Source: a virus. From it: a stretch of 64,000 nt of DNA. The stretch is from the IMG/VR virus record IMGVR_UViG_3300025115_000004, positions 14,045 to 78,044 of that record; one strand, 5' to 3'. Below are positions 7,069 to 34,019 of the stretch, one piece after another (the first letter of the stretch is position 1; every line of letters begins with the position of its first letter). The notes under the pieces are model-generated. The model saw nothing but the letters and a program-made list of their open reading frames with translations, ran no database searches and was not told where the DNA came from. Made by a program: the position numbers and the translations under genes.

Positions 7069-9337
7069 GAAGTATTTAAACTATCTCTACAAACAATATC
7101 AGAAAGGCCTGATAGGGCAGGATAAGCTTGAAGAGCTTAGACGGGAGGGTTATATCAAAGATGATGAACCTAAGGATGATCCAATCTCTCCAGAATTAAA
7201 ACGAAGGGTACGTGAATTATCTTGGGACCAGTCCATGGACCCATTCTTGTCTTATGATACTACACATTTCAAGTATAAACAGGAGATACGTAAAGATGAT
7301 TGGTTGCCTGTAAGTGTTACCAGTCATGAGCAAGATTTTATAGACTGGATCAATTCTATGACTTATGGCTTCTTTCCTCACAGGATAGACTATAAGAAGT
7401 TCATTATGTATAAGGTTCAGGCTTATAGATGGTTACTGGATGATGACAACATAACAAGTTATCATACTGACGAGAGCCGCAGGGACTTTGTAAAGAGAGA
7501 GTATGACCGGTGTGCAGAGAATAGTCTTTATTTTGTGGATCGTTATGGGGAACTGAAAGAAGGTGATATCTCTTCAGGGTATGTGAAATATACGGCCAGA
7601 GAGCATCATGCTGTTATCTGTTATCTGTTTGATTGTGGTTACAATGTGATAGGTGGTAAAGGGAGGCAGATAGGATTTACTTCTATTATGGGGTTGTTGG
7701 CTGTTAAAAAGTTGATATTCCAATCCAATTACTATATAAAGTTTGTGACAGAGGATAAAGAGACTGGTATAGAGATATTTACAGATAAGATTAAGTACCC
7801 ATTCGGAGCTCTCCCCAGATGGATGCGCCCCAAGGTTAAGAGTGATAGTGGTACCCGGTTCTGGCTTTCTGACAAGATTCGTAAGGGGGAGAAAGGTTAC
7901 CCCAATTCAAGGATTGATGTTATAGCCCCTAAGAATACTGCAATAAACGGAGGATCTCCTCAGCTGGTTCTTATAGACGAGATTGGTAACATAGGTATTC
8001 TTGGAGCTATGCTAAATGAAGGCCGTCCTACCATGTTTTGGAATAACCCTAAGACAGGTAAATTTGAGTTGAAGCGTCAGGTATGGATGTGGGGAACTGG
8101 AGGTAAGATGGAGAAAGGTGGGGGAGAGTATGAGAAAGAGTGGTACAGGATCTTAGGTTTGTGGGAAGCTAAGTCTAACCATAGTGGTTTTGTTCCTCTG
8201 TTCTTTAGTTGGCATTGTCGATTTGATGTTACAGAGTATGAGAAGGAGAAATCATGGTATTATGGAGCACGAGCTCAGAAAGAAGATATAGATCTAGAGA
8301 CATCCAAGACACAATTTCACCAGCACTACCCATCTACATTTAATGATATGTTCCTTAAGACTGCCAGTACTTTGGTATCTCGGGAAATCATTGAAAGCGG
8401 TATAGACAGGTGTAGGAAGGTACCTGCCGATCTTCGTCCTGTATATGGCTACTTTGAGCCTGTATTTGATGAGAGTGATCCAATGCCTCCGGAGAGCGAT
8501 GTACCTTACAGGATAATAGGTGCTAGGTTTGTGCCTGTATCTGATGAGGATATTAAGAAAGCCTCTGTTATCATATTTCAGCGTCCGGAACCCGGATGGC
8601 GACACAGATATTGGAAAGGTAGTGACCCAATAGCTACAGAGACAGGGCATTCTAAGTTTGCTTCAGTAATCTGGGATGATCTATACAAGACTATATCGGC
8701 TCTAGTCTTTTACCGCGTACAGCATGATCATAAGTATACTTTTCTACAGGTACTATTGTTGGGGCTGTATTATGGTATGTCTTCTGACGGATCTGTGGAT
8801 ATAAAGGAGTTGGTAGAGGCAAACATCGGTACCAACTATATAGACTACACGGAGACCAAAGGATATTTTCATACTCTCGTTTTCAACTCTCAACTTCCTA
8901 CTAAGGTTGCGGGAGGTACCCGGCTTATAGGTATTGACAACAAGGGTACGAGGGCTGATGCTATTATCGATTACATGACGGAGGTGATAAGAGCTTACCA
9001 TGATAGGTTTTATATATCTCTGATATTCGAACAGTTACATACTTTTGTACAGAAGAAGACAACTTCTGGTAAGGAGGTATGGGGGGTGGTCAATAAGACC
9101 ATGCACTATGATGACGTGTTGTACGCCTTGGTTTATGCATACATATGCCGGTTATCTCACATGCATCTTTCTCCAACAAGGGAGGTGGCTTCTACCACGA
9201 GGTTTAAGGTTAGATATAAATTAGTTAGGAACGCTGCCAATGAGGTAGTAAGAGTTCCTGTCAAAGTACCTATATATGAGACTGTTACAGGTGCATCGCC
9301 ATTAAATATTGATATATATGAAAATACGTCTGTTTGA
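7046..9337 (+). CDS. terL: Terminase large subunit
   Basis: Walker A GKGRQIGFTS, Walker B LVLIDE, nuclease GSDP and HYDD; position before portal. Confidence 0.92.
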   Translation: MATTKAREKYLNYLYKQYQKGLIGQDKLEELRREGYIKDDEPKDDPISPELKRRVRELSWDQSMDPFLSYDTTHFKYKQEIRKDDWLPVSVTSHEQDFIDWINSMTYGFFPHRIDYKKFIMYKVQAYRWLLDDDNITSYHTDESRRDFVKREYDRCAENSLYFVDRYGELKEGDISSGYVKYTAREHHAVICYLFDCGYNVIGGKGRQIGFTSIMGLLAVKKLIFQSNYYIKFVTEDKETGIEIFTDKIKYPFGALPRWMRPKVKSDSGTRFWLSDKIRKGEKGYPNSRIDVIAPKNTAINGGSPQLVLIDEIGNIGILGAMLNEGRPTMFWNNPKTGKFELKRQVWMWGTGGKMEKGGGEYEKEWYRILGLWEAKSNHSGFVPLFFSWHCRFDVTEYEKEKSWYYGARAQKEDIDLETSKTQFHQHYPSTFNDMFLKTASTLVSREIIESGIDRCRKVPADLRPVYGYFEPVFDESDPMPPESDVPYRIIGARFVPVSDEDIKKASVIIFQRPEPGWRHRYWKGSDPIATETGHSKFASVIWDDLYKTISALVFYRVQHDHKYTFLQVLLLGLYYGMSSDGSVDIKELVEANIGTNYIDYTETKGYFHTLVFNSQLPTKVAGGTRLIGIDNKGTRADAIIDYMTEVIRAYHDRFYISLIFEQLHTFVQKKTTSGKEVWGVVNKTMHYDDVLYALVYAYICRLSHMHLSPTREVASTTRFKVRYKLVRNAANEVVRVPVKVPIYETVTGASPLNIDIYENTSV

Positions 9338-9928: not shown

Positions 9929-12118
9929 ATGATACAGTTACTTACAAGCCCGGCAGAGAGACCTAATAGGATCGAGACTCCGGAAGTGTTAAAGGGTGAA
10001 GAATATCACCTGAGGTATGCTAGGTGGGCCGTATGGACTGGTTCCTCCACGAAACATTCTAAATATGTTAATGATTATGACACTAACTTGAAGTTTTATA
10101 AAGACGATCAGTGGTGTATGGATGAGGATCTGGATGCTTTCTTCAAGGATGAGGCGGGTAATGATCGTAACCGATTAAAGGTTACCCGTAATTACGTTCA
10201 ACCTATGGTGGAGCAGTATAGAGGTAACGCAGAGCGTATGACTTTTGATATGAAGGCTATCAATATATCCCCATTAGCCAAAAGCCGAAGAGATAAGGCC
10301 TTAGCCAGAGCTTTGTCTTATAATCATATAGCTAGGACTTTACCGGGTTACGAGTCTCATCTTCAGGAGAGCAATGTCCCAATAGGTAATGACACTCAGG
10401 TTACTGATGTTTTTAATAATCTATATGTCGATAATTACACCATAGCACTTAACAGAATCCTTAAGCATGGTAAGGACGTTAATAGGTTTGATGAAGCTAA
10501 ATCATTATACGCTAGGGACTTAGCCTTAGCTGGTGTAGCTATAGCTAAACCTTATCCTCATGGTGGTGAGTGGATGTTTAAGAGGGTCTCTCCAGATCGA
10601 TTCGGGTGGGATCGTAATGCTCAGGACCCCACTTTGAGGGATGCTGAATATTTCTTTGAACAGGACATTATTCCTACTCCTTCTATATTCGAACTTTATC
10701 AACATATACCTCACAATGTAAGGAAGGCTATTGAACAGCAGGCTACTTCTGTTGTAGGATCTACGGCTTCTATAGGTAATAAGTTTTTCTCTTTAGGTAG
10801 GACCCCGGTTTATACATCTGTATGGAAAGATATCATATACGAGAAGTATGGGTATGTGATGGATGAGTACGGCCAGAGGATATTGGTAAGAATCGATTAT
10901 ATTGAACCTAATCAGACTGAGCCCAAGTATAAAGAGAAGGATCTTATACCTCTAGAGAAGCTTACTGAATATCAGAAGAAAGTATTGAAAGGAGGTAATA
11001 CGGCTTATCTTTATGTAGATCATTGGAGGTATTGTACATTCATCCCGGGAGAAGTTATACCGGTTAAAGACGCTAGGGGGCGTATCATGGATGTGGCTTT
11101 GGACTATGGCGTTATTCCTTATCAGGAGCCTGATCTTTATAAGCCTACTAATATGGTGCCACCGTATAAAGTGGGGATATGGTCGTATATTGACGGAGAG
11201 GTTTTGTCTCCTGTGTCTGTGGTCATTAACCCTCAAAGGATGATAAACCGGTTTCTCTCTGTTATGGAGAATCATATAAACAATTCGGGGGGTTCTGGTG
11301 TGGTTTATGATAAGGACCTGACAGGAACCTCGCAGGAGGACGATATAAAAGCTGCTGTAAGTAGGGGCGAGGCTATAGGAGTGCATGCTAAGGGTAGGGG
11401 GGTAAACAATGTATTTGGTAGGTACGACAGTACTGTGAAGGAATCTATAGTGGCTTTTTCATCTTTGATTGAGAATTTTAAGTTAGGGATAGAACAGGTC
11501 ACTGGGGTGAATGAGGGGGTTAAAGGGGAAACCAATAATCCTGATCAGTTGGTTGGGGTTATGCAGCTTATGATTCAACGCGGATTAATCATACAGGAAC
11601 CATTCTATAAAGCTTTATCTGATCTTTATCAGGGATGTTATCAGAGCATAGCCTCTTCGGGTAGGAGGTATTATATCGATAATGAGGTAGAACTTATGGA
11701 TATAGTGGGAGAGGATATGTCTTCAGTTATAAAGTTGTCTAAGGATATGCGTAATGAATCTATGCGCGTTACGGTTGTTCGTAATATGGATAGAGACAAT
11801 GAGCGTGTGATGGTTGACAGTAATGTGATGACATGGCTTCAGTTTGGTCTTGTGGATCAGGAGCTTGCTAGTAAACTTGTTGGTCGGGCTACCATGGAAG
11901 AAGCTTTATTCCATATGAGAGACTTCCAGAAGCAACTGGCAGTACTTAAGCGTAAACAGCAGCAGGCTGCTGGGCAGGTCGCTCAACAGCAGGCTAACGC
12001 TACTGAGCAGGCTGGAAGGGTTGCCTACGGAGAAAAATTACGAGAGGAAATGAGGGAAGACTTTAATAGAGCCGCTGATAGGGGGGTACAATTAGCCTCT
12101 ACTACTTCAGCGCAATAA
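9929..12118 (+). CDS. Portal protein
   Basis: 729 aa; FY..DQW, NYVQPMVEQYRG, QRMINR, EQVTGVNE; Gln-rich C-terminal coiled coil like P22-type portals. Confidence 0.88.
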   Translation: MIQLLTSPAERPNRIETPEVLKGEEYHLRYARWAVWTGSSTKHSKYVNDYDTNLKFYKDDQWCMDEDLDAFFKDEAGNDRNRLKVTRNYVQPMVEQYRGNAERMTFDMKAINISPLAKSRRDKALARALSYNHIARTLPGYESHLQESNVPIGNDTQVTDVFNNLYVDNYTIALNRILKHGKDVNRFDEAKSLYARDLALAGVAIAKPYPHGGEWMFKRVSPDRFGWDRNAQDPTLRDAEYFFEQDIIPTPSIFELYQHIPHNVRKAIEQQATSVVGSTASIGNKFFSLGRTPVYTSVWKDIIYEKYGYVMDEYGQRILVRIDYIEPNQTEPKYKEKDLIPLEKLTEYQKKVLKGGNTAYLYVDHWRYCTFIPGEVIPVKDARGRIMDVALDYGVIPYQEPDLYKPTNMVPPYKVGIWSYIDGEVLSPVSVVINPQRMINRFLSVMENHINNSGGSGVVYDKDLTGTSQEDDIKAAVSRGEAIGVHAKGRGVNNVFGRYDSTVKESIVAFSSLIENFKLGIEQVTGVNEGVKGETNNPDQLVGVMQLMIQRGLIIQEPFYKALSDLYQGCYQSIASSGRRYYIDNEVELMDIVGEDMSSVIKLSKDMRNESMRVTVVRNMDRDNERVMVDSNVMTWLQFGLVDQELASKLVGRATMEEALFHMRDFQKQLAVLKRKQQQAAGQVAQQQANATEQAGRVAYGEKLREEMREDFNRAADRGVQLASTTSAQ

Positions 12119-13399: not shown

Positions 13400-14716
13400 A
13401 TGCCCGATCCTTTTAACACACAGAATGCATACGTAGCAGTGCCGTCACCGGTACAGCCTACGAATGTACAGAGCCCCGCGCCTTGGAATCTTAATGCCGA
13501 TGGCTCTGAGTATGCTGCAGCGTATGGTTATGATACTACTTCGCTGATTAAGAGGGCTATTGCAGAAGCCATCTATGATGCTGTTCCTGCAAAATATAAA
13601 GCCCTTAGACTTCTCTTCGACAGGCCTATAGACTATGAGGCCAGTGATGTATTCACCTACATGGAAAAGACCTTTGGTCGTACCGCTCTTCGTGACTCTG
13701 GTGGAGGTGTTGCGGGTGGAGCAACTCAGACTATAACCCTGACTACGGGGGGAGGTAAGAACGTAACCATGAACAAAATCATTGTTTACCCAAACAACCG
13801 TAAGGGTATCGTTACCGGTGTTACAGGTGATCAGATAACAGTGAAGAGGTTTAATGGTGAGTCTAACCTTCCTACAGTTAACGCGGGAGACTATTTCTCT
13901 ATTCAGGGATCGGTTATAGCTGACGGTATGAACTTCCTTACTCACTATGACAGGATGTCTAAAATTGAGCGTTTCAATTACGTTCAGCTTATGCATCGTG
14001 ATAAGAGGTGGACGAGGAAAGAAATGCAGAAGTTTGCCAACCTTGGTACCACCAATTACTTTGAACTGGATAAGAAAGAACAGATGGATCTCCTGCTCGG
14101 GGATATGTTTGCCTCTTTCTGGAACGGTCAGAGGGGTGAGGTTGATGTAACTGTTCCGGGTACAGCTAACGTGTATAAGGCCATGACTATGGGTGGGCTA
14201 TTCCCTCTTATGGTTGCTGCTGGTTGCGCTAATGCTACCGGAGTTACAGAGGCTACCTTGCAGGCTGCTTTTGAGAATCTGGCTTTCCAGACTGACTACA
14301 AGTCAGAGGGTGGTGTACGGTTCATATTTGCCCAGAACTCCTTGCTTTATGCTCTGTCAAAGGCATGGAAAGAGACAGGTATCCGTTATACTCCTAATGA
14401 TAAGATAGGTGATCTCAACCTTATGGAGTACCGTATTGGTGATATGAGGTTTGTTCCGGTTGCTACAGAACTCTTCAAGGAGCTCTCTATGTTCCCGGCC
14501 GATTTCAAGAACAGGATACTTGTTCTGGACCTCGACACTATCAAACCGGTCTGTATGAGGGGTTATGAGCCTATCGAAATGGGTCAGACTAGTCCTAAGG
14601 GTGTGAATGGTAGCATCAATGACTACACCGAGTGGTGGATTCAGGGTATGCTGTCCCTTAAATTCAACAACCCTCTCAGTTCATTCTACATTGATACCGT
14701 AGGTATTGCCGCTTAA
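13400..14716 (+). CDS. Major capsid protein (HK97 fold)
   Basis: 438 aa; NYVQL..R, F..GQRGE, TMGGL; followed by a strong terminator. Confidence 0.85.
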   Translation: MPDPFNTQNAYVAVPSPVQPTNVQSPAPWNLNADGSEYAAAYGYDTTSLIKRAIAEAIYDAVPAKYKALRLLFDRPIDYEASDVFTYMEKTFGRTALRDSGGGVAGGATQTITLTTGGGKNVTMNKIIVYPNNRKGIVTGVTGDQITVKRFNGESNLPTVNAGDYFSIQGSVIADGMNFLTHYDRMSKIERFNYVQLMHRDKRWTRKEMQKFANLGTTNYFELDKKEQMDLLLGDMFASFWNGQRGEVDVTVPGTANVYKAMTMGGLFPLMVAAGCANATGVTEATLQAAFENLAFQTDYKSEGGVRFIFAQNSLLYALSKAWKETGIRYTPNDKIGDLNLMEYRIGDMRFVPVATELFKELSMFPADFKNRILVLDLDTIKPVCMRGYEPIEMGQTSPKGVNGSINDYTEWWIQGMLSLKFNNPLSSFYIDTVGIAA

Positions 14717-16376: not shown

Positions 16377-17087
16377 ATGAACAATAATGCTACTCTCAGG
16401 TTTGTGGTGTATGATCTCTTAGGAGATTTTAAACAGCTTTATGACGATGCTGATATCAGTCCCTTTAAGATGACCTATTGGGTGCTGGTGCATGCGGATA
16501 GGTTGCGTAAACAGCATATAGAGAAGCACGATGCTAGTGCCTATCTTCAGAGGTTCGATGTACCTGTTAGAGTTAATCCTACTACCGGTCGTAATTATTT
16601 TGAACTGCCCGTGGGTATATATGATATGCCTAACGATGCTGCTATTAAATATATCACCTACGCTCCTGAAATAGACTTACATGTTCCTGTATTGGGTAGT
16701 GTGGTATTTACCCGAACTACCCCCACTAAGGCTAGGCGACTGTATTTCAGAGAAGATGAAAGACCATCTCCTAGTAATCCTTATTTCTATAGGGAGAATA
16801 AGTATGTCATTCTGTTAGGTATAGAACAACTCAACATAACTACCTTAGAGACCGGTCTGATAGGTAACTTGAATCCAGCCGATGTTGATATGGACATAGA
16901 CCAGCCATTTGACTTTCCTCAGGATCTTATACCTGTTCTTAAGAGGCAGGTACTTGATATGGGTAGATTTGTATTAATGCTGCCTAAGGATCTTACAAAT
17001 GATGGTACTGCGTCAGGTATTAAGGATGTACCATCTAACAAATTAATTAGTGTTAACGATATAAGCTCAGAACAAGATGCACGTTAA
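16377..17087 (+). CDS. Ring/adaptor protein 2
   Basis: ATLR..VYD.L, D.PFDFP.DLI motifs reminiscent of crAss-like ring proteins. Confidence 0.6.
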   Translation: MNNNATLRFVVYDLLGDFKQLYDDADISPFKMTYWVLVHADRLRKQHIEKHDASAYLQRFDVPVRVNPTTGRNYFELPVGIYDMPNDAAIKYITYAPEIDLHVPVLGSVVFTRTTPTKARRLYFREDERPSPSNPYFYRENKYVILLGIEQLNITTLETGLIGNLNPADVDMDIDQPFDFPQDLIPVLKRQVLDMGRFVLMLPKDLTNDGTASGIKDVPSNKLISVNDISSEQDAR

Positions 17088-24132: not shown

Positions 24133-24471
24133 ATGCCACGAAAATGTAAAGTGTCAAAAATCATGGGTAAGGTCGGTAAGAAAGCAGTAGTTAAGTATGT
24201 AGCAAAGGATACAGGAATTTCTCAGGAGACTGTCTCTTTTGTTTATGACAGCATTATGGATTGCATACTGAAGAGTGTGTTGGACATTAAGGCTGTTACT
24301 CTTCCGGGGATCGGCATCATATATCATAATCCTGTTAAAAGCAGGTTGTCGAATATGACCAATAGTATCGTACCTCCCCATAAGCATTTGTCCTTTAAGC
24401 CTCAGGAGGTTCTGGCTAGGACTATTCGGGTTAAGACCCGGGAATATCCGATAACATCGAAAACGAAGTAA
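24133..24471 (+). CDS. IHF/HU-like DNA-binding protein
   Basis: KKAVVKYVAKDTGISQ..V..V, VTLPGIG, VPPHKHLSFKP; promoter TAAATTTG at 24090. Confidence 0.85.
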   Translation: MPRKCKVSKIMGKVGKKAVVKYVAKDTGISQETVSFVYDSIMDCILKSVLDIKAVTLPGIGIIYHNPVKSRLSNMTNSIVPPHKHLSFKPQEVLARTIRVKTREYPITSKTK

Positions 24472-25254: not shown

Positions 25255-26979
25255 ATGGCAGATAATCCCAGTGTTGTAAGTGATGCCTCAGGAGGTAACT
25301 ACAGCGGTATATTAGACCAAACTAATTTAGCTAGTGCAGCTAATATGTCTTATCTGGAGAATCTGTGGGAACTTGCTCAGAAGGCTGCTCCAAACACTCC
25401 TGCCAGTAACCCTTATAGACCATCTGCTGGTGAGGGGGTTAAAGTGGGGGGTATATCGAACCAAACTTTAGGTAGTGTGGATTTGTTTGCTTCCGGTTTG
25501 GCTAAGATTCCTTTTGAGGTTCTGGATCAGATGGAGAAGGCCAAACAGGATGCTGAAGCTAAATATTATAAAGAGGTAAAGACCTATCTGGATAAGCCTA
25601 TTGCTGATATTACAGCCAAGTTGAATAATCCGTTTGCTCAGAAAGATTTTGTTGAGAAGATACAGGGGACCATGGATGCTTATCTGGATTCCTATGCGAA
25701 TAGATTTGGGGGTGATTACATGAAGGCCTATGCAGCTGCTGTTAGTGACCCTAACTTGAAGAGGACCATGGCTCTTTACCAGAATTATGCGGATGCTTAT
25801 AACATGGTATTTACGGATGTGGTAGACCTATTAAAAAAGTCTGCTAATCCTACTGAGTACTATGTACCTGACGAGATGAAACAAAGAGCTAATAGGTTCT
25901 TACAGAACCACGGGGATATGAAGAATCTTTCCATCGATAAACTGGCTCAGAACATTGATCAATTCAAAGAGGATTTATCAATATATAAGATTGTTCAGAC
26001 CGCGATGAAGGACTTTAAAGATTCTGTGTATGAGAGTTATCCATATAAAGACACTAACATCTCTACAGATGAGGAGGATGTTTATATTCAAAAGACAGTA
26101 ACAGGTAAAGAAGGTGGGGCTCAATCATTTATCAATTCTATAGTAGAGGCTCATCCGTGGATTAAGAGTGATCCGATTCAAATGTCTTTATTAACCTCCT
26201 TGGTTACCAACTCTATGAAGCATGATGTTAAATATGCTATTAGTAAGGTCAAAAAGGATAGTGCTGAGCGTACATTGGATCTGAAGAAGTATGGGATTAT
26301 GAACGATAAGGGAGAGATTCAGTTCAATACCAAACCAGCCGCGTTGGTTAATACTTTAGCTTATGATGCTGTGAATTATCCGAAACAGGATAAACCTATA
26401 CCAACTACTGTAGGGGCCTATGCTTACTTCATTAACAACGGGAAGTTGTGTTACGGTAAGTTACCTGAATCGTACCAGATGATCCCTGTATCTGAATATG
26501 ATATAAGGCAGGATGATAAGATTGTGAGGGGTAGGTATGTAGAGGGTAAGATAGCTTTTCAGAGTTCTCAACCATTCAAACCAGAACAGATTAGAACGGC
26601 TTCTTCACAAGGGGTGTTAACTGATGCTAGGAAGATTGGAGAGGGTAGAGGTACTACTGAAGTGGTGCCTACTAAGATATTTGATGAATTAAGCGGGTCT
26701 GAGATATCAGTGTTTGGTGAAACTACTGTTCTTATGCCTTTTGAACAGATGAAGGGACAGATAGCTGGTGCCATACCTCATATGAGTTATGTGCATGAGA
26801 AACTGGATGAAAAGAGGGGTGGTGTACATATGAAAGCAGGAACACCTGAAGTGCCTATAGGTGTGACAGAGGACACTGACCTATCAGATATAAATAACAG
26901 TCCGTTGGTTTATTATAGGCTATGGAATGGTAACGTAATGACTGGGCAGGCTATTCATAATATGTATACGAAGAAATGA
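25255..26979 (+). CDS. Ejection/cargo protein 2
   Basis: 574 aa, helical; middle of a small-medium-giant cargo trio. Confidence 0.6.
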   Translation: MADNPSVVSDASGGNYSGILDQTNLASAANMSYLENLWELAQKAAPNTPASNPYRPSAGEGVKVGGISNQTLGSVDLFASGLAKIPFEVLDQMEKAKQDAEAKYYKEVKTYLDKPIADITAKLNNPFAQKDFVEKIQGTMDAYLDSYANRFGGDYMKAYAAAVSDPNLKRTMALYQNYADAYNMVFTDVVDLLKKSANPTEYYVPDEMKQRANRFLQNHGDMKNLSIDKLAQNIDQFKEDLSIYKIVQTAMKDFKDSVYESYPYKDTNISTDEEDVYIQKTVTGKEGGAQSFINSIVEAHPWIKSDPIQMSLLTSLVTNSMKHDVKYAISKVKKDSAERTLDLKKYGIMNDKGEIQFNTKPAALVNTLAYDAVNYPKQDKPIPTTVGAYAYFINNGKLCYGKLPESYQMIPVSEYDIRQDDKIVRGRYVEGKIAFQSSQPFKPEQIRTASSQGVLTDARKIGEGRGTTEVVPTKIFDELSGSEISVFGETTVLMPFEQMKGQIAGAIPHMSYVHEKLDEKRGGVHMKAGTPEVPIGVTEDTDLSDINNSPLVYYRLWNGNVMTGQAIHNMYTKK

Positions 26980-29900
26980 AATTAAAGGATATTTTCACCG
27001 AAGATCCCAAGAACCCGGGAGTAAAAGATTATTGGAAGGTTCCTCAGGAATCTGTCACTATTCCTATGGCTCCAGCTACCACAACTCCGGCTGCTACTCC
27101 ATCACCTAAGTTGAAGGATTTCCTCTCCGAGGATTTGAATGCTCCTAAGGTTCAACCTACTGATAGATTTGTATCTAATCATATAACAAGTCCTGTTGTG
27201 GATGAGATGTTTAGATTGGTGGATGCTGGGGTAGAACCTATGCAAGCTATCAAACAGCTACAGGATGCTCCGGATACTCGTGTGGCTTATATCGAACAGG
27301 TTGCTTCTGAGATGGTGGGGAGGGATATGATAAAGTTACTAACCTTACCTGATGATTATCGTAGTTTTCGGGGACCATCATGGAAGAAGGTTAAGGACAA
27401 TATAACTGAATCGGGGGGTATATACAGGGATGATGAGAAAGATTTATATAAGGAAGCTGTACGTAAGCACGCTAGGAATAGCCTTTCGGTAGGGTGGATA
27501 AATAGGGCTTTTGATACATCTTATCATAGGGTGGGGGAAGCTTTCGATCCTGAGGATAGTACATTTGATAAGATGACAGATAGTGCTTATGAATATGTGA
27601 CTCCGATGCTTTCGCCTGAGATGCAGAAGAGGTTCCAGATTCAGGATCAGATAGATGCAGAAAATGCAAAGTCTGTTGAGGACGGTAAGGATTATAATAA
27701 GATAAAGGCCTTGACTCAGCAGTTAAACTCTACAGGTAAGACGTATACCGATATGGACGGGAACGTCATAGAGACTGCCGATATGTCCAAGGTCTCCGCG
27801 GAGGATAAGGACTTCCTCAAGATGATTCAGGATAAAGAGTCTGAACTAGAGCCTATAAGGACTGATAGGGAGAGGTTACGGGATGTGTTTATGGAGCATT
27901 ATGCTTATACCCGAGCTCTAGAGGAGATATATCAGGTGGAGGTTGCCCCAAAATTAGGGGCTGCTACAACCTTTATGCATGCTGGTATGAGTCCGGCCGA
28001 GCTTCCTAGAGATCAGATAATGACCAAAGAGAATTGGGATTTGATGGATAAGTACAGGGAGGCTAGAGCTCATCTACAGGCTATTGGATCTATGTATATG
28101 GCTAATCGGTCTCCTTTGGATGTTAAGAGAGATTTTGGCTTCTTCTTAGGTGATGCTGTGGAAAGTGCTGGTAGAGGATTGTTTGGGGACCGTATTATGA
28201 ATTCCATATACGATTCTCTGGAGAAGGATGGTGATACTAGGTCGACAACAGAGTTAAGGGCCCTCTCTGCGGTGATAAGTTCTAACGAACTTCCTACTTC
28301 TGAGGAGATGTCTAAGCATCTTGAACCTACGTTCTTTGAGATGGCTAATCAGACAGTCTTTGGGGTTTTAGGTATTCTTCCAAAGTTATATATAGCTAAT
28401 GTGGCCGGAGCAGGCCTTGCAGGTCAAATAGGTCTTATGAGGTATATTGACCCGGTTAAAGGTTTGTGGACTACGGGTACCAGATTTCAGCAGGCTAATG
28501 CTGCAATCGCGCGTATAATGTTTGAGGAGGCAAAAATGAGGATGGTAGGTCTTCATGCTGGTTCGGGGGCTGGTTTTGGTCTTGCACACGAAGCTCAGAT
28601 GCGTATTAATATGCCCGGAGTTCCGGCTTATCTCAACACTTTCATGAATTTTATGAAGAAACCTTTTCTCATGACCTCGTCTATGTATGTAGCTAAAATG
28701 ACAGAGGCTACCTTTGAGTATATTATGTCTGATGAGGAGATGAGTACTATTCTTGATAGGTACTATGGAGGAGGTTTCAAGGAGTTAGGGGCAACATTCG
28801 CGGCCAATATGGTATTGGGTATAGGTAGTTATGGTACTCCTAAGAACAGATATCCGGAACTTCTTAAGATGGCTGAACAGTTGGAGAAGGACGGTAACAA
28901 GGCAGAGTCTATGCAGATAAGGTCTACTATCCAACTTATGCAGAAGATGGATAAGGCAGAGGAAGCTGTAAAATCAGAAGCTAAGTGGAGGGGGTGGAAC
29001 GAGAAAGAGACTCAGGCTAAGCTTGTTGAAACTCAGCGTAAGGTGACTAGTGAACATAGTGCTTCTACCACGGCCATGATGGAAAGACATAATATTTTGG
29101 AGAGGACTATTCCTGAAGCTGATTTAGCTAAAGCATTGAGTAAGACTAAGATGGTTGATACTGAAGGTAAACCTCAGGTATGGATATATGATACTGATGC
29201 AGTATTTAATCTATTCGATACGCGGGTGGCTCAGAAGAACAGTAAGACAAAGAAGAGTGCTCCCGGACGTGCGCAGGGTATGGTATGGTTTACTTTGGAG
29301 CCTGAGTTTAGGATGGGGGCTAATAGACATTACAGGTATCTTAACTTTGAGAAACCTAAGGATGTGGGTAATGTTAGATCTTTCAAATTTTCTGCGGACA
29401 ATATTGAGGCCCTTAAGAGACAGGGTTATGACGGTATAACCGGTTATGAATGGTACACTAACTCTAAGGGTGAGAGGGTTAAAGCTAAAGTAGCTGCATC
29501 TTTTGGTACTCAGGGGATAGTAAAGACGAGAGAAGGGTCTGCATCCGCGGGGGCTCCTGAGGTTCTGCGTGAGTGGGCCACGAAGATCAGGGAACATAAA
29601 GGATTTAACGATCCTAAACCGGGTGAAATTTATCTGAGATTGCCGTATCAGGAGAAGGTAATTAACGGGGCTATGGAGGCTGCTGCCAAGACTCTAGAGG
29701 CTACTGCTAGTATTGTGGAGGCGGTTAATAAGGCTATTGAGCATGTTAAGTCGACAGACTGGTATAAGTCTATGGCACCGGAGGTACAGGCTAAGTATGA
29801 TGCAGAGATGGCGGTTAGATTTAAGCAACTACTAGAGCAACAGAAACCAGCAGAGATTGCTAAGTCTGAGATGGCTAAGGCTGAGGCTATGGTTAAGCAA

Positions 29901-32900
29901 GCTGAGTCTGAGGTAATGCCTGCTTTTAAGAGTACAGGGGAGGAAGTCGCGTCTAAACATAGGGGGGAGTTTGTTACTGATATTAAGAAACCGGAGAGTA
30001 TCGTAGAGAAGAGATCGAGAACAGGTGCTTGGGATGTATTAGACATCGAAGATGTTGTACGCGGAGCTCTGATTCTTAGGGACATGAAGGATTTTAAGGA
30101 GGCTTCTAAAGATCTTAAGAAAATGGGTTATACTATTCATAATAAGAGGGTAGGGAATAGTGAAACCGGATTTAAGGGTGTATGGGCTACGAAACGTGAA
30201 GGTGAGTTAGGCACTGAGATACAGATCCATACAAAAGAGACTTGGGAGGCACATCAGAAGGCTAATGCCCTTACCAAGGAGTTTAGAGGTAAACAAAAAG
30301 GGGCTGATATCAAAGCCGAAGAGTCTACTGTCAAGATTCAAGAGAAGAAAGAAGTAGAGAAAGAATTCGAGGCGGCTACTCCTGAGAGTTTTATTAATAT
30401 GGATACCACCCCTTTAAAGGGTACCCAATATGCTGTTCTTACCGCGGAGAATCCGGGTAATCAACAGGCTTCGGCAAAAGAGAATGCCAAGAAGAACAAG
30501 GAGCTCATGGAGGAGTTGAAGAAAGCTGGTTATAAACCTATACCTGTGAAAGGTAACTACAATGGTAAATCAGAGAGTTCTTTCATTATACCCGGGATGA
30601 CTGAAGCTGAGGCGTTAGCTATAGGTAAGAAGTACGGACAGGAGAGTGTGATCACTACGAAGGGTATGATCTTTCAGGACGGCACTATGCATAAGGCTGA
30701 GCCTACCATTAATTTTGATCCTAATAAGGAGGCTGACTATAGCATTATCAATCTGGGGGGTAAAGAGGTAAAATTCTCTTTAGAGTTTGATTGGATTAAC
30801 AAGATACCTACAGAGTCATATTCTTCTAGGTATACGGCTGCTATGTCGGAATCTAGATCTCTGTACGATAAAGCTTATGAAGGGTTAGAGTTGATTAATC
30901 TGGAGGGTAGTCCGGCTAAGACAGCTCTAGAGCGTAAGATGAAGGAGTTAGAGCTTCCGGTATCTACTCAGAGGGAGATAAAGACTTCTTGGAATGAGAC
31001 CAAGAAGAAGCTTCTTACAGATCTGAGGGAAGATAATGCAGCTATAAAAGGTGCTTTTAACGAGTTCATTAAGACTCTTCCATTAACCGAGGTTCATGGG
31101 TTGAACATCAAGCTTAAACCGACTATGCTTCGTAGGGTTAATGCTATAGATCCTATGAAGCCTAAATCACTGGAACGCGCTATAGAGTATTTTGATAATA
31201 TAGTCAACAATGCTGCTGCCCGTCTTAATGAAATAGAGATACAGAAGTCATGGGATTATCTTGATAAGAAGACCAGTGATATGGCTATTAAGCAAGATAA
31301 TCTGATTAGAGGTAAGTTTAGTTCGGAGGGGGCACCTCTGATAGATGTTTTGACAGGTATAAGGAAGAGTATGATAGAGGGTAACTATTATGACGCACAA
31401 CAGAAGATTGGTGAGATACTTCTCTCAGCTGATAGAGAAGGGAGACCCTTATCTATAGGTGAGTATAATCAGATATCAGAGTTAAAGTTTCACGGTCTTC
31501 TTAACGAGACAGGAGGTCTAACCGCTACTGCAGAGTACTATAAGGCAGCTGTAGCTGATCTGAAGTCTATAAGGACTAAGGGACAACATATGATTGCTGC
31601 TAAGAGGATGGTTAAACAGGCTCAAATGAATGAACTGTTCTCAGAGGTTAAAAATATTCTGGATGGTAAACCCGGGAAGCCCGTTTCGTATGATCAGAGG
31701 GTAGCTTCTAATAGGACTCTCTCTGTAGGGGAGAAGATGAGTCGTATGACAGATATTACATATTTTGACAGTTGGTTTACTATATTAGATAAGTTATCTA
31801 AGTTTGACAAATCTAGTCAACCCTATCAATCTACTTTAAACAAGGTTTATGGAGGGGCCGTGGTTGAATCGAATATGGGTTATCACATTGATTCTAAAGC
31901 TTTCCATAATGAAACTATTACTACGGCTAAGAATATATTTAACACAAAGAGTACAACGGCACTTAATCGTAAGCTTAAGGAACACTCTATCAAACTATAT
32001 GATATATCTAAGGAGTTTCAGGAGGTTACAGGAAGTAAGGAGAATCTATCTATTACTATGAATCAGGCTTATAAAGTTTGGATGGATATGCAGGACCGTA
32101 CAAATATGAGAGCTTTGGAGAATAGTGGTTATTTCAAGAACGGGGAAATGACTTCATTAGGACATAAGATAGAATCTATATTAACTCCTGAAGTTAAACA
32201 ATGGGCTGAGTGGCAGTTAAATGTCTTCTATCCTAAGATGTATGAATACCTTAATCCTTCTTATAGGGAGTTTTACGGTATTGATATGCCGTTCAATGAG
32301 AAATACTCACCCAGATTTGTACAGAATCCTGCTACAAAAGGTATTCCGGAGCATGAGTTATTAGCTTCCCAGACTCTGATGACCTCGATTAAGAATAATC
32401 ATCTTCTTACTAGGACTAATCATGGTCATAAACTGAGCTTCATGGACGGGGATAAAGTTCTTACACAATATATTGATAAGATGTCTTACTGGAAGAACTG
32501 GACCCCTACTATACAGTTGTTAAATGAGTCTTTTATCAGGAATGGTGAGATTAGGATGGCTATTGAGCAGAATTTTGGTCCCAGATATTTAAAGAATATT
32601 GAAGGTTTTATGTATGATTACAGTAAGAAACCTAAACAGGATTATACTAAATTCTTAGCCCCTTTTGTAAATAATATGGCGGTAGCTACCTTATCTTTAA
32701 AGATACCTGTAATGTTAAAACAGTTAACGTCAGCCCCAGCGTATCTAGAAAATATGCCTGTGCTTGAGTATGGTAGGTATTTCTCCGAGATATTCTCTCA
32801 CCCTGTAGAGACTGTAAAGACTATGAAGAGATTATTAGATAGCGATTATATGCAGCAGAGGTATAAGACAGGGTGGGATCAGACTGTTACGGCTGTCATG

Positions 32901-34019
32901 GCGAGAGATTTAAATAGTCTCTCGGGGCAGAGTAATTGGCGTAATTGGCAGAATACTATGATGTTCACTGTTAAGTATGGTGATGCTGGTGCTATATTAC
33001 TTGGGGGTTTCCCTTTATATCGTTATGAGTATGAACAGGCTATGAAGAGGTTAGGACCCGGGAGTGAGCGAATGGCCGAGATGATCGCTATTAATAAGTT
33101 TGCAGACGCTACTAGGAATGCTCAACAGGCTGGGGAGGTTTATGACTTATCTAACTTTCAAAGAGATAACACCCTTACAAGGGCTTTGAGTATGTATCGG
33201 ACAGCTCCTATGCAGTACCACAGGAAAGTTATTGGTGCTTATAGGAATTCTCTTCATGGTAGGATGTCTTGGCAAGATGCAACTAAAACAATAGCTTTGT
33301 ACCATGTAGTCCTCCCTTCTTTATTCCAATTAGCTTCTAACGGGTTTAGGTGGGATAATGATGATCAGCTGTGGGCAGCTGTCTTAGGTAACTTTAATAA
33401 CGTCTTGGTATATGGTGATATAGTCGCAGGCGTAACAAATGCTATTAGAGGGCTTCCATGGAATTATCAGATGACTCCTATGCAAGAGATAGGACTTACT
33501 GCTCAGGATGCTACTAGATATTTTAAAAAGTTGAATAGTCCTAGCGGTATAGATAATTATCAGATGACTCCTATGCAAGAGATAGGACTTACTGCTCAGG
33601 ATGCTACTAGATATTTTAAAAAGTTGAATAGTCCTAGCGGTATAGATGATTTATCTAAAGATGTCTTTGAGGAGGCAAAAAACATAGATCAAGTTAATCT
33701 TACAAAGGGGTTAATTGAAGTAAGTAAGTTGTTTGGTTATCTTACTGGTACACCTGTTCCGGCTATAATGTCTACAGGAAAAGGAATAAACGATTGGTTA
33801 GACAATAATACAGAATATCCTCTTCTCCGTATAATGGGTTGGTCAGAGAGTGCTTTGAAGGGAGATCCCTCAAAATTTGATACTACGGAGGATCTTGAGG
33901 TGGTGAGGAATTTACTAGATCCATCTAAACCTTCGATGGATCAGCTACAAAAGATAGCTCCGGTTACTCCAGCTTTATCTCCTCAACAGAGTGTGAAACT
34001 GAAGGATATAATCAAATAA
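26976..34019 (+). CDS. Giant polyvalent cargo protein with ART-PolyVal-like, RelA/SpoT-like and DUF3293-like domains
   Basis: SK.VD.EGKP..GYDGI (~29140-29525); KKPESIVEK..DVVRG..EIQIHT (~29940-30290); AVLTAENP..EN...N..L..GKKYGQESV (~30420-30700). Confidence 0.8.
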   Translation: MKLKDIFTEDPKNPGVKDYWKVPQESVTIPMAPATTTPAATPSPKLKDFLSEDLNAPKVQPTDRFVSNHITSPVVDEMFRLVDAGVEPMQAIKQLQDAPDTRVAYIEQVASEMVGRDMIKLLTLPDDYRSFRGPSWKKVKDNITESGGIYRDDEKDLYKEAVRKHARNSLSVGWINRAFDTSYHRVGEAFDPEDSTFDKMTDSAYEYVTPMLSPEMQKRFQIQDQIDAENAKSVEDGKDYNKIKALTQQLNSTGKTYTDMDGNVIETADMSKVSAEDKDFLKMIQDKESELEPIRTDRERLRDVFMEHYAYTRALEEIYQVEVAPKLGAATTFMHAGMSPAELPRDQIMTKENWDLMDKYREARAHLQAIGSMYMANRSPLDVKRDFGFFLGDAVESAGRGLFGDRIMNSIYDSLEKDGDTRSTTELRALSAVISSNELPTSEEMSKHLEPTFFEMANQTVFGVLGILPKLYIANVAGAGLAGQIGLMRYIDPVKGLWTTGTRFQQANAAIARIMFEEAKMRMVGLHAGSGAGFGLAHEAQMRINMPGVPAYLNTFMNFMKKPFLMTSSMYVAKMTEATFEYIMSDEEMSTILDRYYGGGFKELGATFAANMVLGIGSYGTPKNRYPELLKMAEQLEKDGNKAESMQIRSTIQLMQKMDKAEEAVKSEAKWRGWNEKETQAKLVETQRKVTSEHSASTTAMMERHNILERTIPEADLAKALSKTKMVDTEGKPQVWIYDTDAVFNLFDTRVAQKNSKTKKSAPGRAQGMVWFTLEPEFRMGANRHYRYLNFEKPKDVGNVRSFKFSADNIEALKRQGYDGITGYEWYTNSKGERVKAKVAASFGTQGIVKTREGSASAGAPEVLREWATKIREHKGFNDPKPGEIYLRLPYQEKVINGAMEAAAKTLEATASIVEAVNKAIEHVKSTDWYKSMAPEVQAKYDAEMAVRFKQLLEQQKPAEIAKSEMAKAEAMVKQAESEVMPAFKSTGEEVASKHRGEFVTDIKKPESIVEKRSRTGAWDVLDIEDVVRGALILRDMKDFKEASKDLKKMGYTIHNKRVGNSETGFKGVWATKREGELGTEIQIHTKETWEAHQKANALTKEFRGKQKGADIKAEESTVKIQEKKEVEKEFEAATPESFINMDTTPLKGTQYAVLTAENPGNQQASAKENAKKNKELMEELKKAGYKPIPVKGNYNGKSESSFIIPGMTEAEALAIGKKYGQESVITTKGMIFQDGTMHKAEPTINFDPNKEADYSIINLGGKEVKFSLEFDWINKIPTESYSSRYTAAMSESRSLYDKAYEGLELINLEGSPAKTALERKMKELELPVSTQREIKTSWNETKKKLLTDLREDNAAIKGAFNEFIKTLPLTEVHGLNIKLKPTMLRRVNAIDPMKPKSLERAIEYFDNIVNNAAARLNEIEIQKSWDYLDKKTSDMAIKQDNLIRGKFSSEGAPLIDVLTGIRKSMIEGNYYDAQQKIGEILLSADREGRPLSIGEYNQISELKFHGLLNETGGLTATAEYYKAAVADLKSIRTKGQHMIAAKRMVKQAQMNELFSEVKNILDGKPGKPVSYDQRVASNRTLSVGEKMSRMTDITYFDSWFTILDKLSKFDKSSQPYQSTLNKVYGGAVVESNMGYHIDSKAFHNETITTAKNIFNTKSTTALNRKLKEHSIKLYDISKEFQEVTGSKENLSITMNQAYKVWMDMQDRTNMRALENSGYFKNGEMTSLGHKIESILTPEVKQWAEWQLNVFYPKMYEYLNPSYREFYGIDMPFNEKYSPRFVQNPATKGIPEHELLASQTLMTSIKNNHLLTRTNHGHKLSFMDGDKVLTQYIDKMSYWKNWTPTIQLLNESFIRNGEIRMAIEQNFGPRYLKNIEGFMYDYSKKPKQDYTKFLAPFVNNMAVATLSLKIPVMLKQLTSAPAYLENMPVLEYGRYFSEIFSHPVETVKTMKRLLDSDYMQQRYKTGWDQTVTAVMARDLNSLSGQSNWRNWQNTMMFTVKYGDAGAILLGGFPLYRYEYEQAMKRLGPGSERMAEMIAINKFADATRNAQQAGEVYDLSNFQRDNTLTRALSMYRTAPMQYHRKVIGAYRNSLHGRMSWQDATKTIALYHVVLPSLFQLASNGFRWDNDDQLWAAVLGNFNNVLVYGDIVAGVTNAIRGLPWNYQMTPMQEIGLTAQDATRYFKKLNSPSGIDNYQMTPMQEIGLTAQDATRYFKKLNSPSGIDDLSKDVFEEAKNIDQVNLTKGLIEVSKLFGYLTGTPVPAIMSTGKGINDWLDNNTEYPLLRIMGWSESALKGDPSKFDTTEDLEVVRNLLDPSKPSMDQLQKIAPVTPALSPQQSVKLKDIIK
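33462..33647 (+). repeat. Exact in-frame 93-bp tandem duplication
   Basis: 33462-33554 is identical to 33555-33647 (NYQMTPMQEIGLTAQDATRYFKKLNSPSGID twice). Confidence 0.95.

What the first reader, a model, noticed from the sequence alone, without database searches (positions are those of the whole stretch)
29937..30290. RelA/SpoT-like nucleotidyltransferase domain inside a giant virion cargo protein
Seen: KKPESIVEK, DIEDVVRG, GFKGVW and EIQIHT appear in the order of the four alarmone-synthetase motifs (K..S...K, D...R, GY...H, E.Q.RT), with Y>F and H>W changes in the acceptor-binding motif. The gene sits at the ejected-protein position. Known: phage polyvalent proteins carry RelA-like domains, and toxSAS enzymes make (p)ppApp or pyrophosphorylate tRNA. 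Inference: an injected enzyme that alters host nucleotide signalling or translation before phage gene expression, possibly with a new substrate.
Basis: partly seen in the sequence, partly recalled or inferred. Interest (0 to 1): 0.78.

Follow-up and report, generated by a model that had tools for sequence, protein, structure and literature searches.

The report
RelA/SpoT-like enzyme in giant phage protein
A 2,347-residue protein in the particle-building gene block of an uncultured 78-kb phage contains a genuine but very divergent RelA/SpoT-type pyrophosphokinase domain, probably delivered into the host with the DNA; such domains are already known in phage "polyvalent" proteins, so this is a new example, not a new principle.

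Summary
The four motifs lie in the stated order at aa 1004-1086 of one 2,347-aa ORF (26976-34019, +).

Pfam, PHROGs, NCBIfam and PADLOC do not recognise the domain directly. Four other lines of evidence do:
- A phmmer search links it to small proteins that pass the PF04607 threshold.
- A family profile hits Tas1 (E 4e-15) and then RelP, RelQ, Rel and CapRel.
- hhalign between its own clade and the PF04607-positive proteins gives 99.6%.
- The AlphaFold model matches only RelA/SpoT synthetase domains at the top (RelQ Z 14.6, Tas1 14.2).

The donor-ATP and Mg residues (K1004, K1012, D1026, E1081, Q1083) are invariant in its clade. The acceptor-stacking Tyr is not: it is F here and R, E or W in relatives.

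The domain sits between an apparently inactivated ART-PolyVal domain and a DUF3293 domain whose model has the T3 SAM-lyase fold. Relatives swap these modules for Zeta-toxin, GNAT or radical-SAM domains and carry polyvalent-protein hallmark domains.

Virion packaging and injection are inferred from context only. The product ((p)ppApp, (p)ppGpp or pyrophosphorylated tRNA) is not determined. RelA/SpoT domains in polyvalent proteins (Iyer 2017) and phage MuF-Apk2 (p)ppApp synthetases are published. Verdict: new member of a known kind. Other first-stage notes on this same genome flagged the same three domains.

The parts
26976..34019 (+). Giant ORF of 2,347 aa (P0001), a polyvalent-type multi-effector protein. 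Its ATG overlaps the stop codon of the upstream 574-aa gene (ATGA).
   Evidence: a full-length collinear homologue, P0008, at 33% identity; a syntenic homologue in L001
29913..30380 (+). RelA/SpoT-homologue synthetase-fold domain (aa ~980-1135), of the Tas1/Apk-like toxSAS type
   Evidence: phmmer; PF04607 in distant relatives; profile against PDB: Tas1 4e-15; AF2 pLDDT 82; Foldseek; VIA Z 14.6/14.2; hhalign 99.6%
29985..30011 (+). syn1-like motif KKPESIVEK (K1004, S1008, K1012: binding of the donor ATP phosphates, by homology)
30042..30065 (+). syn2-like motif DIEDVVRG (D1026 is the Mg ligand by homology; R1029 sits at +3, as in Tas1/Apk2, rather than at +5 as in RSH)
30168..30185 (+). syn3-like acceptor motif GFKGVW (canonical form GYxSxH; Apk form GYxGxN)
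30216..30233 (+). syn4-like catalytic strand EIQIHT (E1081 and Q1083 are invariant; the His is as in Apk2)
29148..29555 (+). ART-PolyVal-like domain (aa ~725-860), apparently inactivated: the YH(G/K)T His is Asp here (VWIYDTD, nt 29178-29198). Pfam does not detect the domain.
   Evidence: It aligns with the PF18760 stretch of P0008; no PF18760 hit in P0001 at E<=1
30423..30785 (+). DUF3293 domain (aa ~1150-1270) with a T3 SAM-lyase-like fold
   Evidence: PF11697 4e-13; AF2 pLDDT 83; Foldseek: T3 SAM lyase 8bb1_E E 5e-5, TM 0.58/0.63, and 7ock, 6zm9; the same stretch in P0034 weakly hits PF23780
31041..33935 (+). Conserved C-terminal scaffold of about 1,000 aa with no known family, shared with the L001 and P0008 homologues
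   Evidence: 36% identity over 989 aa with the L001 protein; ESM Atlas neighbours are viral hypothetical proteins, and one cluster has LPD39 in 28% of its members
33462..33647 (+). Exact 93-bp tandem duplication (2 x 31 aa) inside the C-terminal scaffold
   Evidence: 93/93 identical; the L001 homologue has a single copy
25255..26979 (+). Upstream 574-aa gene, translationally coupled; a syntenic 580-aa gene precedes the homologue in L001
34047..34769 (+). Downstream 240-aa gene of unknown family; a gene of similar size (242 aa) sits at the same position in L001 (their sequences were not compared)

Best explanation
Shown: aa ~980-1135 of the 2,347-aa protein is a real RelA/SpoT-homologue (RSH) synthetase-fold domain, and its nearest characterised relatives are the toxic small alarmone synthetases of the Tas1/Apk1-SaEAS branch. 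It is the middle one of three adjacent effector modules: an ART-PolyVal remnant, the RSH-like pyrophosphokinase, and a SAM-lyase-like DUF3293. These sit between large conserved N- and C-terminal scaffolds of a phage polyvalent protein. Inferred: the protein is made late, packaged into the particle and ejected with the DNA. Once inside the host, the domain uses ATP as pyrophosphate donor (K1004, K1012, D1026-Mg, E1081, Q1083) and 3'-pyrophosphorylates a purine nucleotide, giving (p)ppApp and/or (p)ppGpp. The expected effects are loss of ATP and blocked purine and macromolecular synthesis before any phage gene is expressed. Together with SAM destruction by the neighbouring domain, this would blunt host defence and metabolism in the first minutes of infection. 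The acceptor cannot be called from sequence.
For: Fold and family:
- phmmer found 30 relatives, and the distant small ones pass or approach the PF04607 threshold.
- The family profile against the PDB gives Tas1 4e-15, RelP 8e-10, then RelQ, Rel, RelA and CapRel.
- hhalign between the giant-protein clade and the PF04607-positive set gives 99.6%.
- The AF2 model (pLDDT 82) matches only RSH synthetase domains at the top in Foldseek. In VIA it gives RelQ Z 14.6, Tas1 14.2, SaEAS 13.2 and CapRel 12.4, against about 7 for generic Pol-beta NTases.

Catalytic competence:
- K45, K53, D67, E122 and Q124 of the segment are invariant across alignment A1.
- The same residues are conserved in the nearest representatives, apart from the partial match P0011 (N at the first Lys), at 32-64% identity.

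Apk-type signatures as described in PMC12226406:
- Arg at +3 of syn2.
- Gly in syn3.
- His in syn4.

Polyvalent class:
- Relatives carry ART-PolyVal, LPD22, LPD38, InPase, Zeta toxin, GNAT or radical SAM around the same DUF3293 or RSH-like modules.
- RelA/SpoT domains in polyvalent proteins are described, and such proteins encoded next to virion genes are predicted to be packaged and injected (PMC5512222).

Context:
- The gene is on the same strand as, and downstream of, terminase, portal and an SU10-like capsid gene, and upstream of tail-fibre-like genes. It is coupled to its upstream gene.
- The layout is the same in the related 76-kb contig L001.
- The neighbouring domain has the fold of T3 SAM lyase, an early-acting anti-restriction activity. 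A function of that kind is useful only if it is present at entry.
Against: - There is no direct evidence that the protein is in virions or is ejected. No isolate or proteome is related.
- PF04607 does not hit the window's protein directly.
- The acceptor-stacking Tyr is Phe here, and R, E or W in most close relatives. The last syn3 position is unconserved. The acceptor site may therefore be altered or decaying.
- The neighbouring ART domain seems dead, so module decay does occur in this protein.
- No immunity or alarmone-hydrolase gene (HD, HD_4, MazG, NUDIX) is detectable in the 78-kb genome. This raises the question of how a fast ATP-consuming enzyme is tolerated during particle assembly.
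- Relatives in the Tas1/SaEAS branch make ppApp only, ppGpp only, or both (PMC12691689), so the product is not predictable.
Confidence: 0.6

Rival explanations
1. The domain is a tRNA 3'-CCA pyrophosphokinase like CapRel, FaRel2 or PhRel2. After delivery it would block aminoacylation and translation rather than make free alarmones.
For: CapRel structures match the model nearly as well as the alarmone synthetases (Z 12.4/12.1; Foldseek). These enzymes also pyrophosphorylate an adenosine 3'-OH. The loss of the conserved acceptor Tyr in the clade would fit an acceptor other than a free nucleotide.
Against: In the profile search Tas1 (59.7 bits) and RelP (42 bits) score well above CapRel (26 bits). 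FaRel2 scores only Z 8.2. The PADLOC scan gave the domain no hit to any family at E<=1; whether that library holds a CapRel model was not checked. A general translation block at entry would also stop the phage's own early protein synthesis.
Confidence: 0.17
2. The domain is a catalytically dead relic, like the neighbouring ART remnant. It would be kept only as a folded spacer or binding module in a large ejection/scaffold protein.
For: The ART-PolyVal His is lost in the same protein. The syn3 Tyr and the final syn3 position are unconserved in the clade. The R241-equivalent of syn1 is Asp here. No immunity gene is present.
Against: Both Lys residues, both Mg/catalytic acids and the Gln are conserved in the nearest cluster representatives, apart from the partial match P0011, at 32-64% identity. 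Tas1, a very active enzyme, also lacks the syn1 Arg and the syn3 His.
Confidence: 0.15
3. The protein is not delivered into the host. It would act inside the infected cell late in infection, or be released at lysis as an antibacterial toxin against neighbouring cells, as proposed for prophage MuF polymorphic toxins.
For: Delivery is only inferred. The experimentally studied phage-borne relatives (Apk2, Bxa) are discussed as polymorphic toxins or fitness factors (PMC12226406; PMC11699363).
Against: There is no MuF domain and no adjacent immunity genes. The gene is embedded in, and coupled to, the structural operon. A SAM-lyase-like anti-restriction module is useful mainly at entry. A free 2,347-aa protein has no evident route into a neighbouring cell.
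Confidence: 0.08

Closest known systems
RelA/SpoT domains in phage polyvalent proteins (Iyer, Burroughs, Anand, de Souza, Aravind 2017, PMC5512222)
   Same: An RSH-type NTase domain embedded in a very large multi-effector protein that is encoded next to virion genes. Relatives carry ART-PolyVal, LPD22, LPD38 and InPase.
   Different: The published cases were in spirochaete and epsilonproteobacterial (pro)phages and in MuF fusions. Here the carrier is an uncultured 78-kb phage with no related isolate. The domain is too divergent for PF04607, and it is paired with a SAM-lyase-like DUF3293. A term search of that paper (SAMase, SAM hydrolase, adenosylmethionine, AdoMet, DUF3293) found no mention of such a domain.
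Tas1/Apk1 (T6SS (p)ppApp synthetase, PDB 6OX6) and SaEAS (PDB 8VX3)
   Same: These are the best sequence-profile and fold matches. They share the syn2 Arg at +3 and the GYxGx-type syn3, and they lack the syn1 Arg and the syn3 His.
   Different: Tas1 is a C-terminal toxin on a PAAR protein with an immunity partner, and SaEAS is a secreted protein. Here the domain is internal to a phage protein, has Phe for the stacking Tyr and Trp for Asn, and has no immunity gene.
Apk2, the MuF polymorphic toxins of temperate phages (PMC12226406)
   Same: A phage-encoded RSH-like pyrophosphokinase in the head-gene neighbourhood. It shares the syn4 His and the syn2 Arg signatures.
   Different: Apk2 has an N-terminal MuF domain and a C-terminal toxin, followed by the immunity genes iapK and aph1. 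None of these is present here.
CapRel / FaRel2 / PhRel2 tRNA pyrophosphokinases
   Same: The same fold (Z 12.4 for CapRel, 8.2 for FaRel2).
   Different: Those are toxin-antitoxin or fused defence proteins of bacteria and prophages. Their profile scores are much weaker, and the PADLOC scan gave the domain no hit.
T4 Alt and P1 Dar proteins (virion-packaged host-modifying or anti-restriction proteins)
   Same: The functional analogy: enzymes carried in the particle that act before phage gene expression (PMC5512222).
   Different: No homology was tested or claimed, and packaging of the present protein is not shown.

Membership tests
RelA/SpoT homologue synthetase domain (PF04607 superfamily) | Significant match to the family's sequence model | tested here: inconclusive
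   There is no direct PF04607 hit in P0001 or in the genome. Indirect links are significant: phmmer to proteins that pass the PF04607 threshold, hhalign 99.6%, and the profile against PDB RSH enzymes down to 4e-15.
RelA/SpoT homologue synthetase domain (PF04607 superfamily) | RSH synthetase fold (a mixed beta-sheet with flanking helices, Pol-beta-like NTase) | tested here: met
   The AF2 model has pLDDT 82. The top 30 VIA rows are all RSH synthetase domains, at Z 14.6 down to 7.7, above generic NTases at about 7. Foldseek agrees.
RelA/SpoT homologue synthetase domain (PF04607 superfamily) | Conserved donor-ATP and Mg residues of syn1, syn2 and syn4 (two Lys, an Asp, and the Glu-x-Gln strand) | tested here: met
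   K1004, K1012, D1026, E1081 and Q1083 are present and invariant in alignment A1. They are conserved in the nearest relatives apart from the partial match P0011.
RelA/SpoT homologue synthetase domain (PF04607 superfamily) | Acceptor-stacking Tyr of syn3 (GY) | tested here: not met
   It is Phe in the window. Among the 12 nearest sequences (the window plus 11 representatives) it is Y in 3, R in 6, and F, E and W once each. Phe could still stack, so this is a departure from the motif and not proof of inactivity.
RelA/SpoT homologue synthetase domain (PF04607 superfamily) | ATP-dependent 3'-pyrophosphotransfer activity | not testable with these tools
   This needs an enzyme assay.
Adenosine 3'-pyrophosphokinases (Apk1/Tas1, Apk2) | Apk-type signatures at syn2 (R-x-T), syn3 (G-x-N) and syn4 (Y-H), as described in PMC12226406 | tested here: inconclusive
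   The window has syn2 R-G-A (Arg yes), syn3 G-V-W (Gly yes, Asn no) and syn4 I-H (His yes). The cited paper shows that these motifs alone do not set specificity.
Apk2 / MuF polymorphic toxins | [quoted passage not shown] | tested here: not met
   The Pfam scan of P0001 at E<=1 lists only DUF3293 and two chance-level hits. The domain is internal (aa ~980-1135 of 2,347).
Apk2 / MuF polymorphic toxins and toxSAS toxin-antitoxin modules | An adjacent immunity or antitoxin gene (IapK-like binder, or Aph1/SAH hydrolase) | tested here: not met
   There is no HD_4, HD, MazG or NUDIX match anywhere in the 78-kb record. The downstream 240-aa gene has no family and sits at the same position as a 242-aa gene in L001. 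A binder of a novel type cannot be excluded.
Polyvalent proteins (Iyer et al. 2017) | Two or more effector domains in one large polypeptide of a phage or conjugative element | tested here: met
   An ART-PolyVal-like remnant, an RSH-like domain and a SAM-lyase-like DUF3293 lie in one ORF.
Polyvalent proteins (Iyer et al. 2017) | Hallmark polyvalent-associated domains (LPD families, ART-PolyVal) | tested here: inconclusive
   None reaches significance in P0001 itself. Homologues found through the same region carry PF18760, PF18834 (LPD22), PF18857 (LPD38) and PF18823. The ART region of P0001 aligns collinearly with that of P0008.
Polyvalent proteins (Iyer et al. 2017) | Packaged in the virion and delivered with the DNA | not testable with these tools
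   There is only contextual evidence.
crAss-like virion RNA polymerase (giant cargo protein) | Double-psi beta-barrel catalytic DxDxD motif | tested here: not met
   P0001 contains no DxDxD anywhere. This was a motif-level test only.

The most novel reading that the evidence does not exclude
This clade of giant-protein RSH domains keeps the ATP-donor and Mg machinery. It has let go of the acceptor-stacking Tyr (F, R, E or W in its place). In several members the syn2 Arg is lost while an Arg appears in syn3. The clade may therefore have been retargeted to a non-canonical acceptor, for example a defence-system signalling nucleotide, NAD/ADP-ribose-derived molecules or another 3'-OH-bearing metabolite. 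In that case the injected enzyme would be a counter-defence modifier and not an alarmone synthetase.
Probability: 0.1. Interest if true: 0.8.

Novelty: new member of a known kind. Interest (0 to 1): 0.42.

Why it matters
The finding extends RelA/SpoT-type effectors in phage polyvalent proteins to an uncultured phage lineage, possibly one that infects Bacteroidota, and to a subfamily that standard domain models miss. It also shows the domain as one slot in a swappable three-module payload of ART, pyrophosphokinase and SAM-lyase-like domains. If delivery and activity were demonstrated, this would be a case of a lytic-type phage carrying a Tas1-like nucleotide pyrophosphokinase without any immunity gene. 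That would raise a testable question: how is such an enzyme kept silent during assembly? The variable acceptor pocket offers a natural series for studying substrate choice in toxic alarmone synthetases.

Tried and rejected
- Direct family scans of the domain or the whole protein gave no RelA/SpoT hit: Pfam, PHROGs (only a weak hit under DUF3293), NCBIfam, PADLOC, and single-sequence phmmer against the PDB.
- Searches of GenBank phages found nothing for the gene (megablast), the domain, the capsid, the portal or the 1,585-aa neighbour. There was one weak hit for the C-terminal scaffold and only distant T4-type terminase hits. The phage therefore could not be placed, and no proteome of a relative could be used.
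- crAss-type virion RNA polymerase: rejected at motif level (no DxDxD). The weak CrAss_Ring_2 hit and the HU-like gene in the structural block are only hints of a crAss-like particle.
Small homologues end about 45 aa after the EIQ strand without any insert. The L001 homologue has about 240 aa between the two regions. Each part also folds confidently on its own.
- Search for an alarmone hydrolase or immunity gene: HD_4, HD, MazG and NUDIX are absent from the 78-kb record.
- T7-type RNA polymerase: no match, but the control genomes also gave none, so the test is uninformative.
- A search for stand-alone DUF3293 relatives of similar length found none. A scan of viral contigs with the C-terminal scaffold found none.
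- No complex prediction was run, because no specific binding partner is claimed.
Full report
**1. Where it lies**

The window is bases 14045-78044 of a 78,044-bp IMG/VR virus record that CheckV estimates to be 94% complete. The finding lies inside one uninterrupted ORF, 26976-34019 on the + strand, of 2,347 aa (P0001).
- KKPESIVEK, aa 1004-1012
- DIEDVVRG, aa 1023-1030
- GFKGVW, aa 1065-1070
- EIQIHT, aa 1081-1086

They span nt 29985-30233.

**2. Is it a RelA/SpoT domain?**

Direct library scans fail. Pfam reports only DUF3293 at aa 1155-1225. PHROGs, NCBIfam and PADLOC give nothing relevant. PF04607 finds nothing in the whole record. Four other lines of evidence settle the question.

(a) phmmer of aa 960-1140 against 1.84 billion cluster representatives finds 30 relatives. 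The closest (32-64% identity) are domains inside proteins of 1,900-2,700 aa. The more distant ones include small proteins of 176-383 aa, of which P0019, P0027, P0029 and P0031 pass the PF04607 gathering score and four more fall just below it.

(b) A profile of the window segment plus 11 relatives (A1) hits Tas1 (6OX6) at E 4e-15. It then hits RelP, RelQ, Rel, RelA and CapRel.

(c) hhalign of the giant-protein clade alone against the PF04607-positive small proteins gives probability 99.6%, E 8e-24.

(d) The AlphaFold2 model (pLDDT 82.4, pTM 0.74) matches only RSH synthetase domains at the top:
- Foldseek ranks SaEAS 8VX3, Tas1, RelP, RelQ and CapRel first.
- VIA-align gives RelQ Z 14.6, Tas1 14.2, SaEAS 13.2, CapRel 12.4 and FaRel2 8.2.
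- Generic Pol-beta nucleotidyltransferases appear only at Z about 7.

**3. Active-site reading**

By alignment to RelP and Tas1, K1004 and K1012 correspond to the donor-phosphate lysines of syn1. D1026 and E1081 correspond to the Mg ligands, and Q1083 to the conserved Gln. These residues are invariant in A1. They are also conserved in the nearest cluster representatives, with the partial match P0011 as the only exception at the first Lys. This argues for a retained ATP-dependent activity.

The domain carries features that the Apk2 literature lists as typical of adenosine 3'-pyrophosphokinases as opposed to RSH (PMC12226406):
- Arg at +3 after the syn2 Asp, as in Tas1 (DLARNT).
- Gly in the fourth position of syn3.
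- His in syn4.

'H>W' is therefore not in itself unusual for this branch.

What is unusual is the stacking Tyr. It is Phe in the window. Among the 11 nearest representatives it is Tyr in three, Arg in six, and Glu and Trp once each. Nearly all the more distant relatives keep Tyr. In several members the syn2 Arg is lost while an Arg appears in syn3. The acceptor pocket of this clade therefore evolves freely while the donor side is fixed.

Characterised members of the Tas1/SaEAS branch make (p)ppApp only, (p)ppGpp only, or both (PMC12691689). The same Apk2 paper showed that swapping the syn motifs did not convert specificity. For both reasons I do not call the product.

**4. The carrier protein**

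P0008 (2,283 aa) is collinear with P0001 over its whole length at 33% identity. The 2,093-aa protein of the related 76-kb viral contig L001 shares the RSH-like domain (41% identity) and about 1,000 aa of C-terminal scaffold (36%).

Two further modules flank the RSH-like domain.

Upstream, aa ~725-860 aligns with the ART-PolyVal (PF18760) stretch of P0008, P0033 and P0002. The YH(G/K)T histidine reads Asp here (VWIYDTD), and Pfam no longer detects the domain. It is probably an inactivated ADP-ribosyltransferase.

Downstream lies DUF3293. Modelled on its own with 17 homologues (A2; pLDDT 83.3), it matches the T3 SAM lyase (8BB1_E, E 5e-5, TM 0.58/0.63; also 7OCK and 6ZM9) and nothing else significantly. 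In P0034 the same stretch weakly hits the Pfam S-AdoMet_lyase family.

Relatives found through this region are modular:
- Some have the RSH-like domain plus DUF3293 (P0008, P0032).
- One has the RSH-like domain plus radical SAM (P0002).
- Many have DUF3293 without the RSH-like domain, together with ART-PolyVal, LPD22, LPD38, InPase, Zeta toxin or GNAT.

This is the architecture that Iyer et al. 2017 defined as polyvalent proteins. That paper already records RelA/SpoT domains in such proteins and in MuF fusions. It proposes alarmone-like host shut-off as their role (PMC5512222).

**5. Is it a virion cargo?**

This is inference, based on the following points.
- The gene lies on the same strand as, and downstream of, the large terminase (7043-9337), the portal (9929-12118) and an SU10-type capsid protein (13400-14716). 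It lies upstream of tail-fibre-like genes.
- Its ATG overlaps the stop of the upstream 574-aa gene.
- L001 has a matching run of gene sizes: 248, 580, giant and 242 aa.
- A SAM-lyase-type module is an early anti-restriction function in T3 (structure titles; reference list). Placing it in a late structural-operon protein makes sense only if the protein enters with the DNA.
- Iyer et al. make the same prediction for polyvalent proteins encoded next to virion genes.

No proteomic or structural data exist, and no isolate is related.

The protein is not a crAss-type virion RNA polymerase by motif. A weak CrAss_Ring_2 hit and an HU-like gene in the block hint at a crAss-like particle plan. A modest excess of the Bacteroidota -7 motif TAnnTTTG (68 against 49.8 +/- 7.5) hints at a Bacteroidota host.

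**6. Differences from the experimentally studied phage cases**

Apk2 toxins have an N-terminal MuF domain and a C-terminal toxin, followed by the immunity genes iapK and aph1 (PMC12226406). Bacteroidales MuF toxins follow the same rule (PMC11699363). Here there is no MuF domain and the RSH-like domain is internal. The 78-kb record has no HD_4, HD, MazG or NUDIX gene. How a Tas1-like ATP consumer would be tolerated during assembly is unexplained. Possible answers are auto-inhibition within the full-length protein, low activity, or an unrecognised binder.

**7. Verdict**

Delivery with the DNA and nucleotide pyrophosphorylation are the most likely mechanism (about 0.6). The rivals are:
- tRNA pyrophosphorylation (about 0.17)
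- a dead relic domain (about 0.15)
- a protein that is not delivered into the host (about 0.08)

The kind of system is published, so this is a new member of a known kind in an unexplored phage lineage. Its clade has an atypically variable acceptor pocket, which is worth an enzymologist's look.

Other first-stage notes on this same genome had flagged the ART remnant, the SAM-lyase-like DUF3293 and a 'nested domain' idea. I tested the first two and they hold. The third is not supported.

Noticed in passing
window 30423-30785 (aa ~1150-1270 of P0001): The model of the DUF3293 domain (PF11697) has the fold of the phage T3 SAM lyase (8BB1_E, E 5e-5, TM 0.58/0.63; also 7OCK and 6ZM9). DUF3293 is widespread in giant polyvalent-type proteins. 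No paper in the searched library mentions DUF3293.
   Followed up: yes
window 29148-29555 (aa ~725-860): An ART-PolyVal-like domain aligns collinearly with PF18760 of P0008, P0033 and P0002. The conserved His of YH(G/K)T is replaced by Asp (VWIYDTD), so it is probably an inactivated ADP-ribosyltransferase.
   Followed up: partly
window 33462-33647: A perfect 93-bp tandem duplication (93/93) produces two identical 31-aa repeats in the C-terminal scaffold. The L001 homologue has one copy. This is either a recent duplication or an assembly artefact.
   Followed up: partly
window 24133-24471 and 16377-17087: An HU/IHF-like DNA-binding protein gene (PF00216, 5.9e-7) lies inside the structural block. 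There is also a weak CrAss_Ring_2 hit (5e-4, below the cut-off). Together they hint at a crAss-like virion plan.
   Followed up: no
window, whole: The Bacteroidota -7 promoter motif TAnnTTTG occurs 68 times against 49.8 +/- 7.5 expected (1 of 100 shuffles reach this). Several copies sit just upstream of gene starts, for example 24090, 34024, 39264, 44321 and 53762.
   Followed up: partly
P0002 aa 1412-1572; P0034 aa 1049-1404: In relatives, the payload slot next to the RSH-like or DUF3293 modules holds other enzymes: a radical SAM domain (P0002), or GNAT plus Zeta toxin (P0034). This shows module swapping on the same kind of giant protein.
   Followed up: partly
L002 9743-10600 and L003 9833-10486: Stand-alone RelA/SpoT-like proteins of 285 aa and 217 aa occur in larger viral contigs (90 kb and 220 kb). 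They are distant relatives of the window's domain, at 27% and 25% identity.
   Followed up: no
window 27340-28840 (aa ~455-620 of P0001): The N-terminal scaffold contains a Gly/Ala-rich hydrophobic stretch, with one segment of Kyte-Doolittle mean above 1.4 starting at aa 460-464. This is compatible with a membrane-interacting part of an ejection protein.
   Followed up: no
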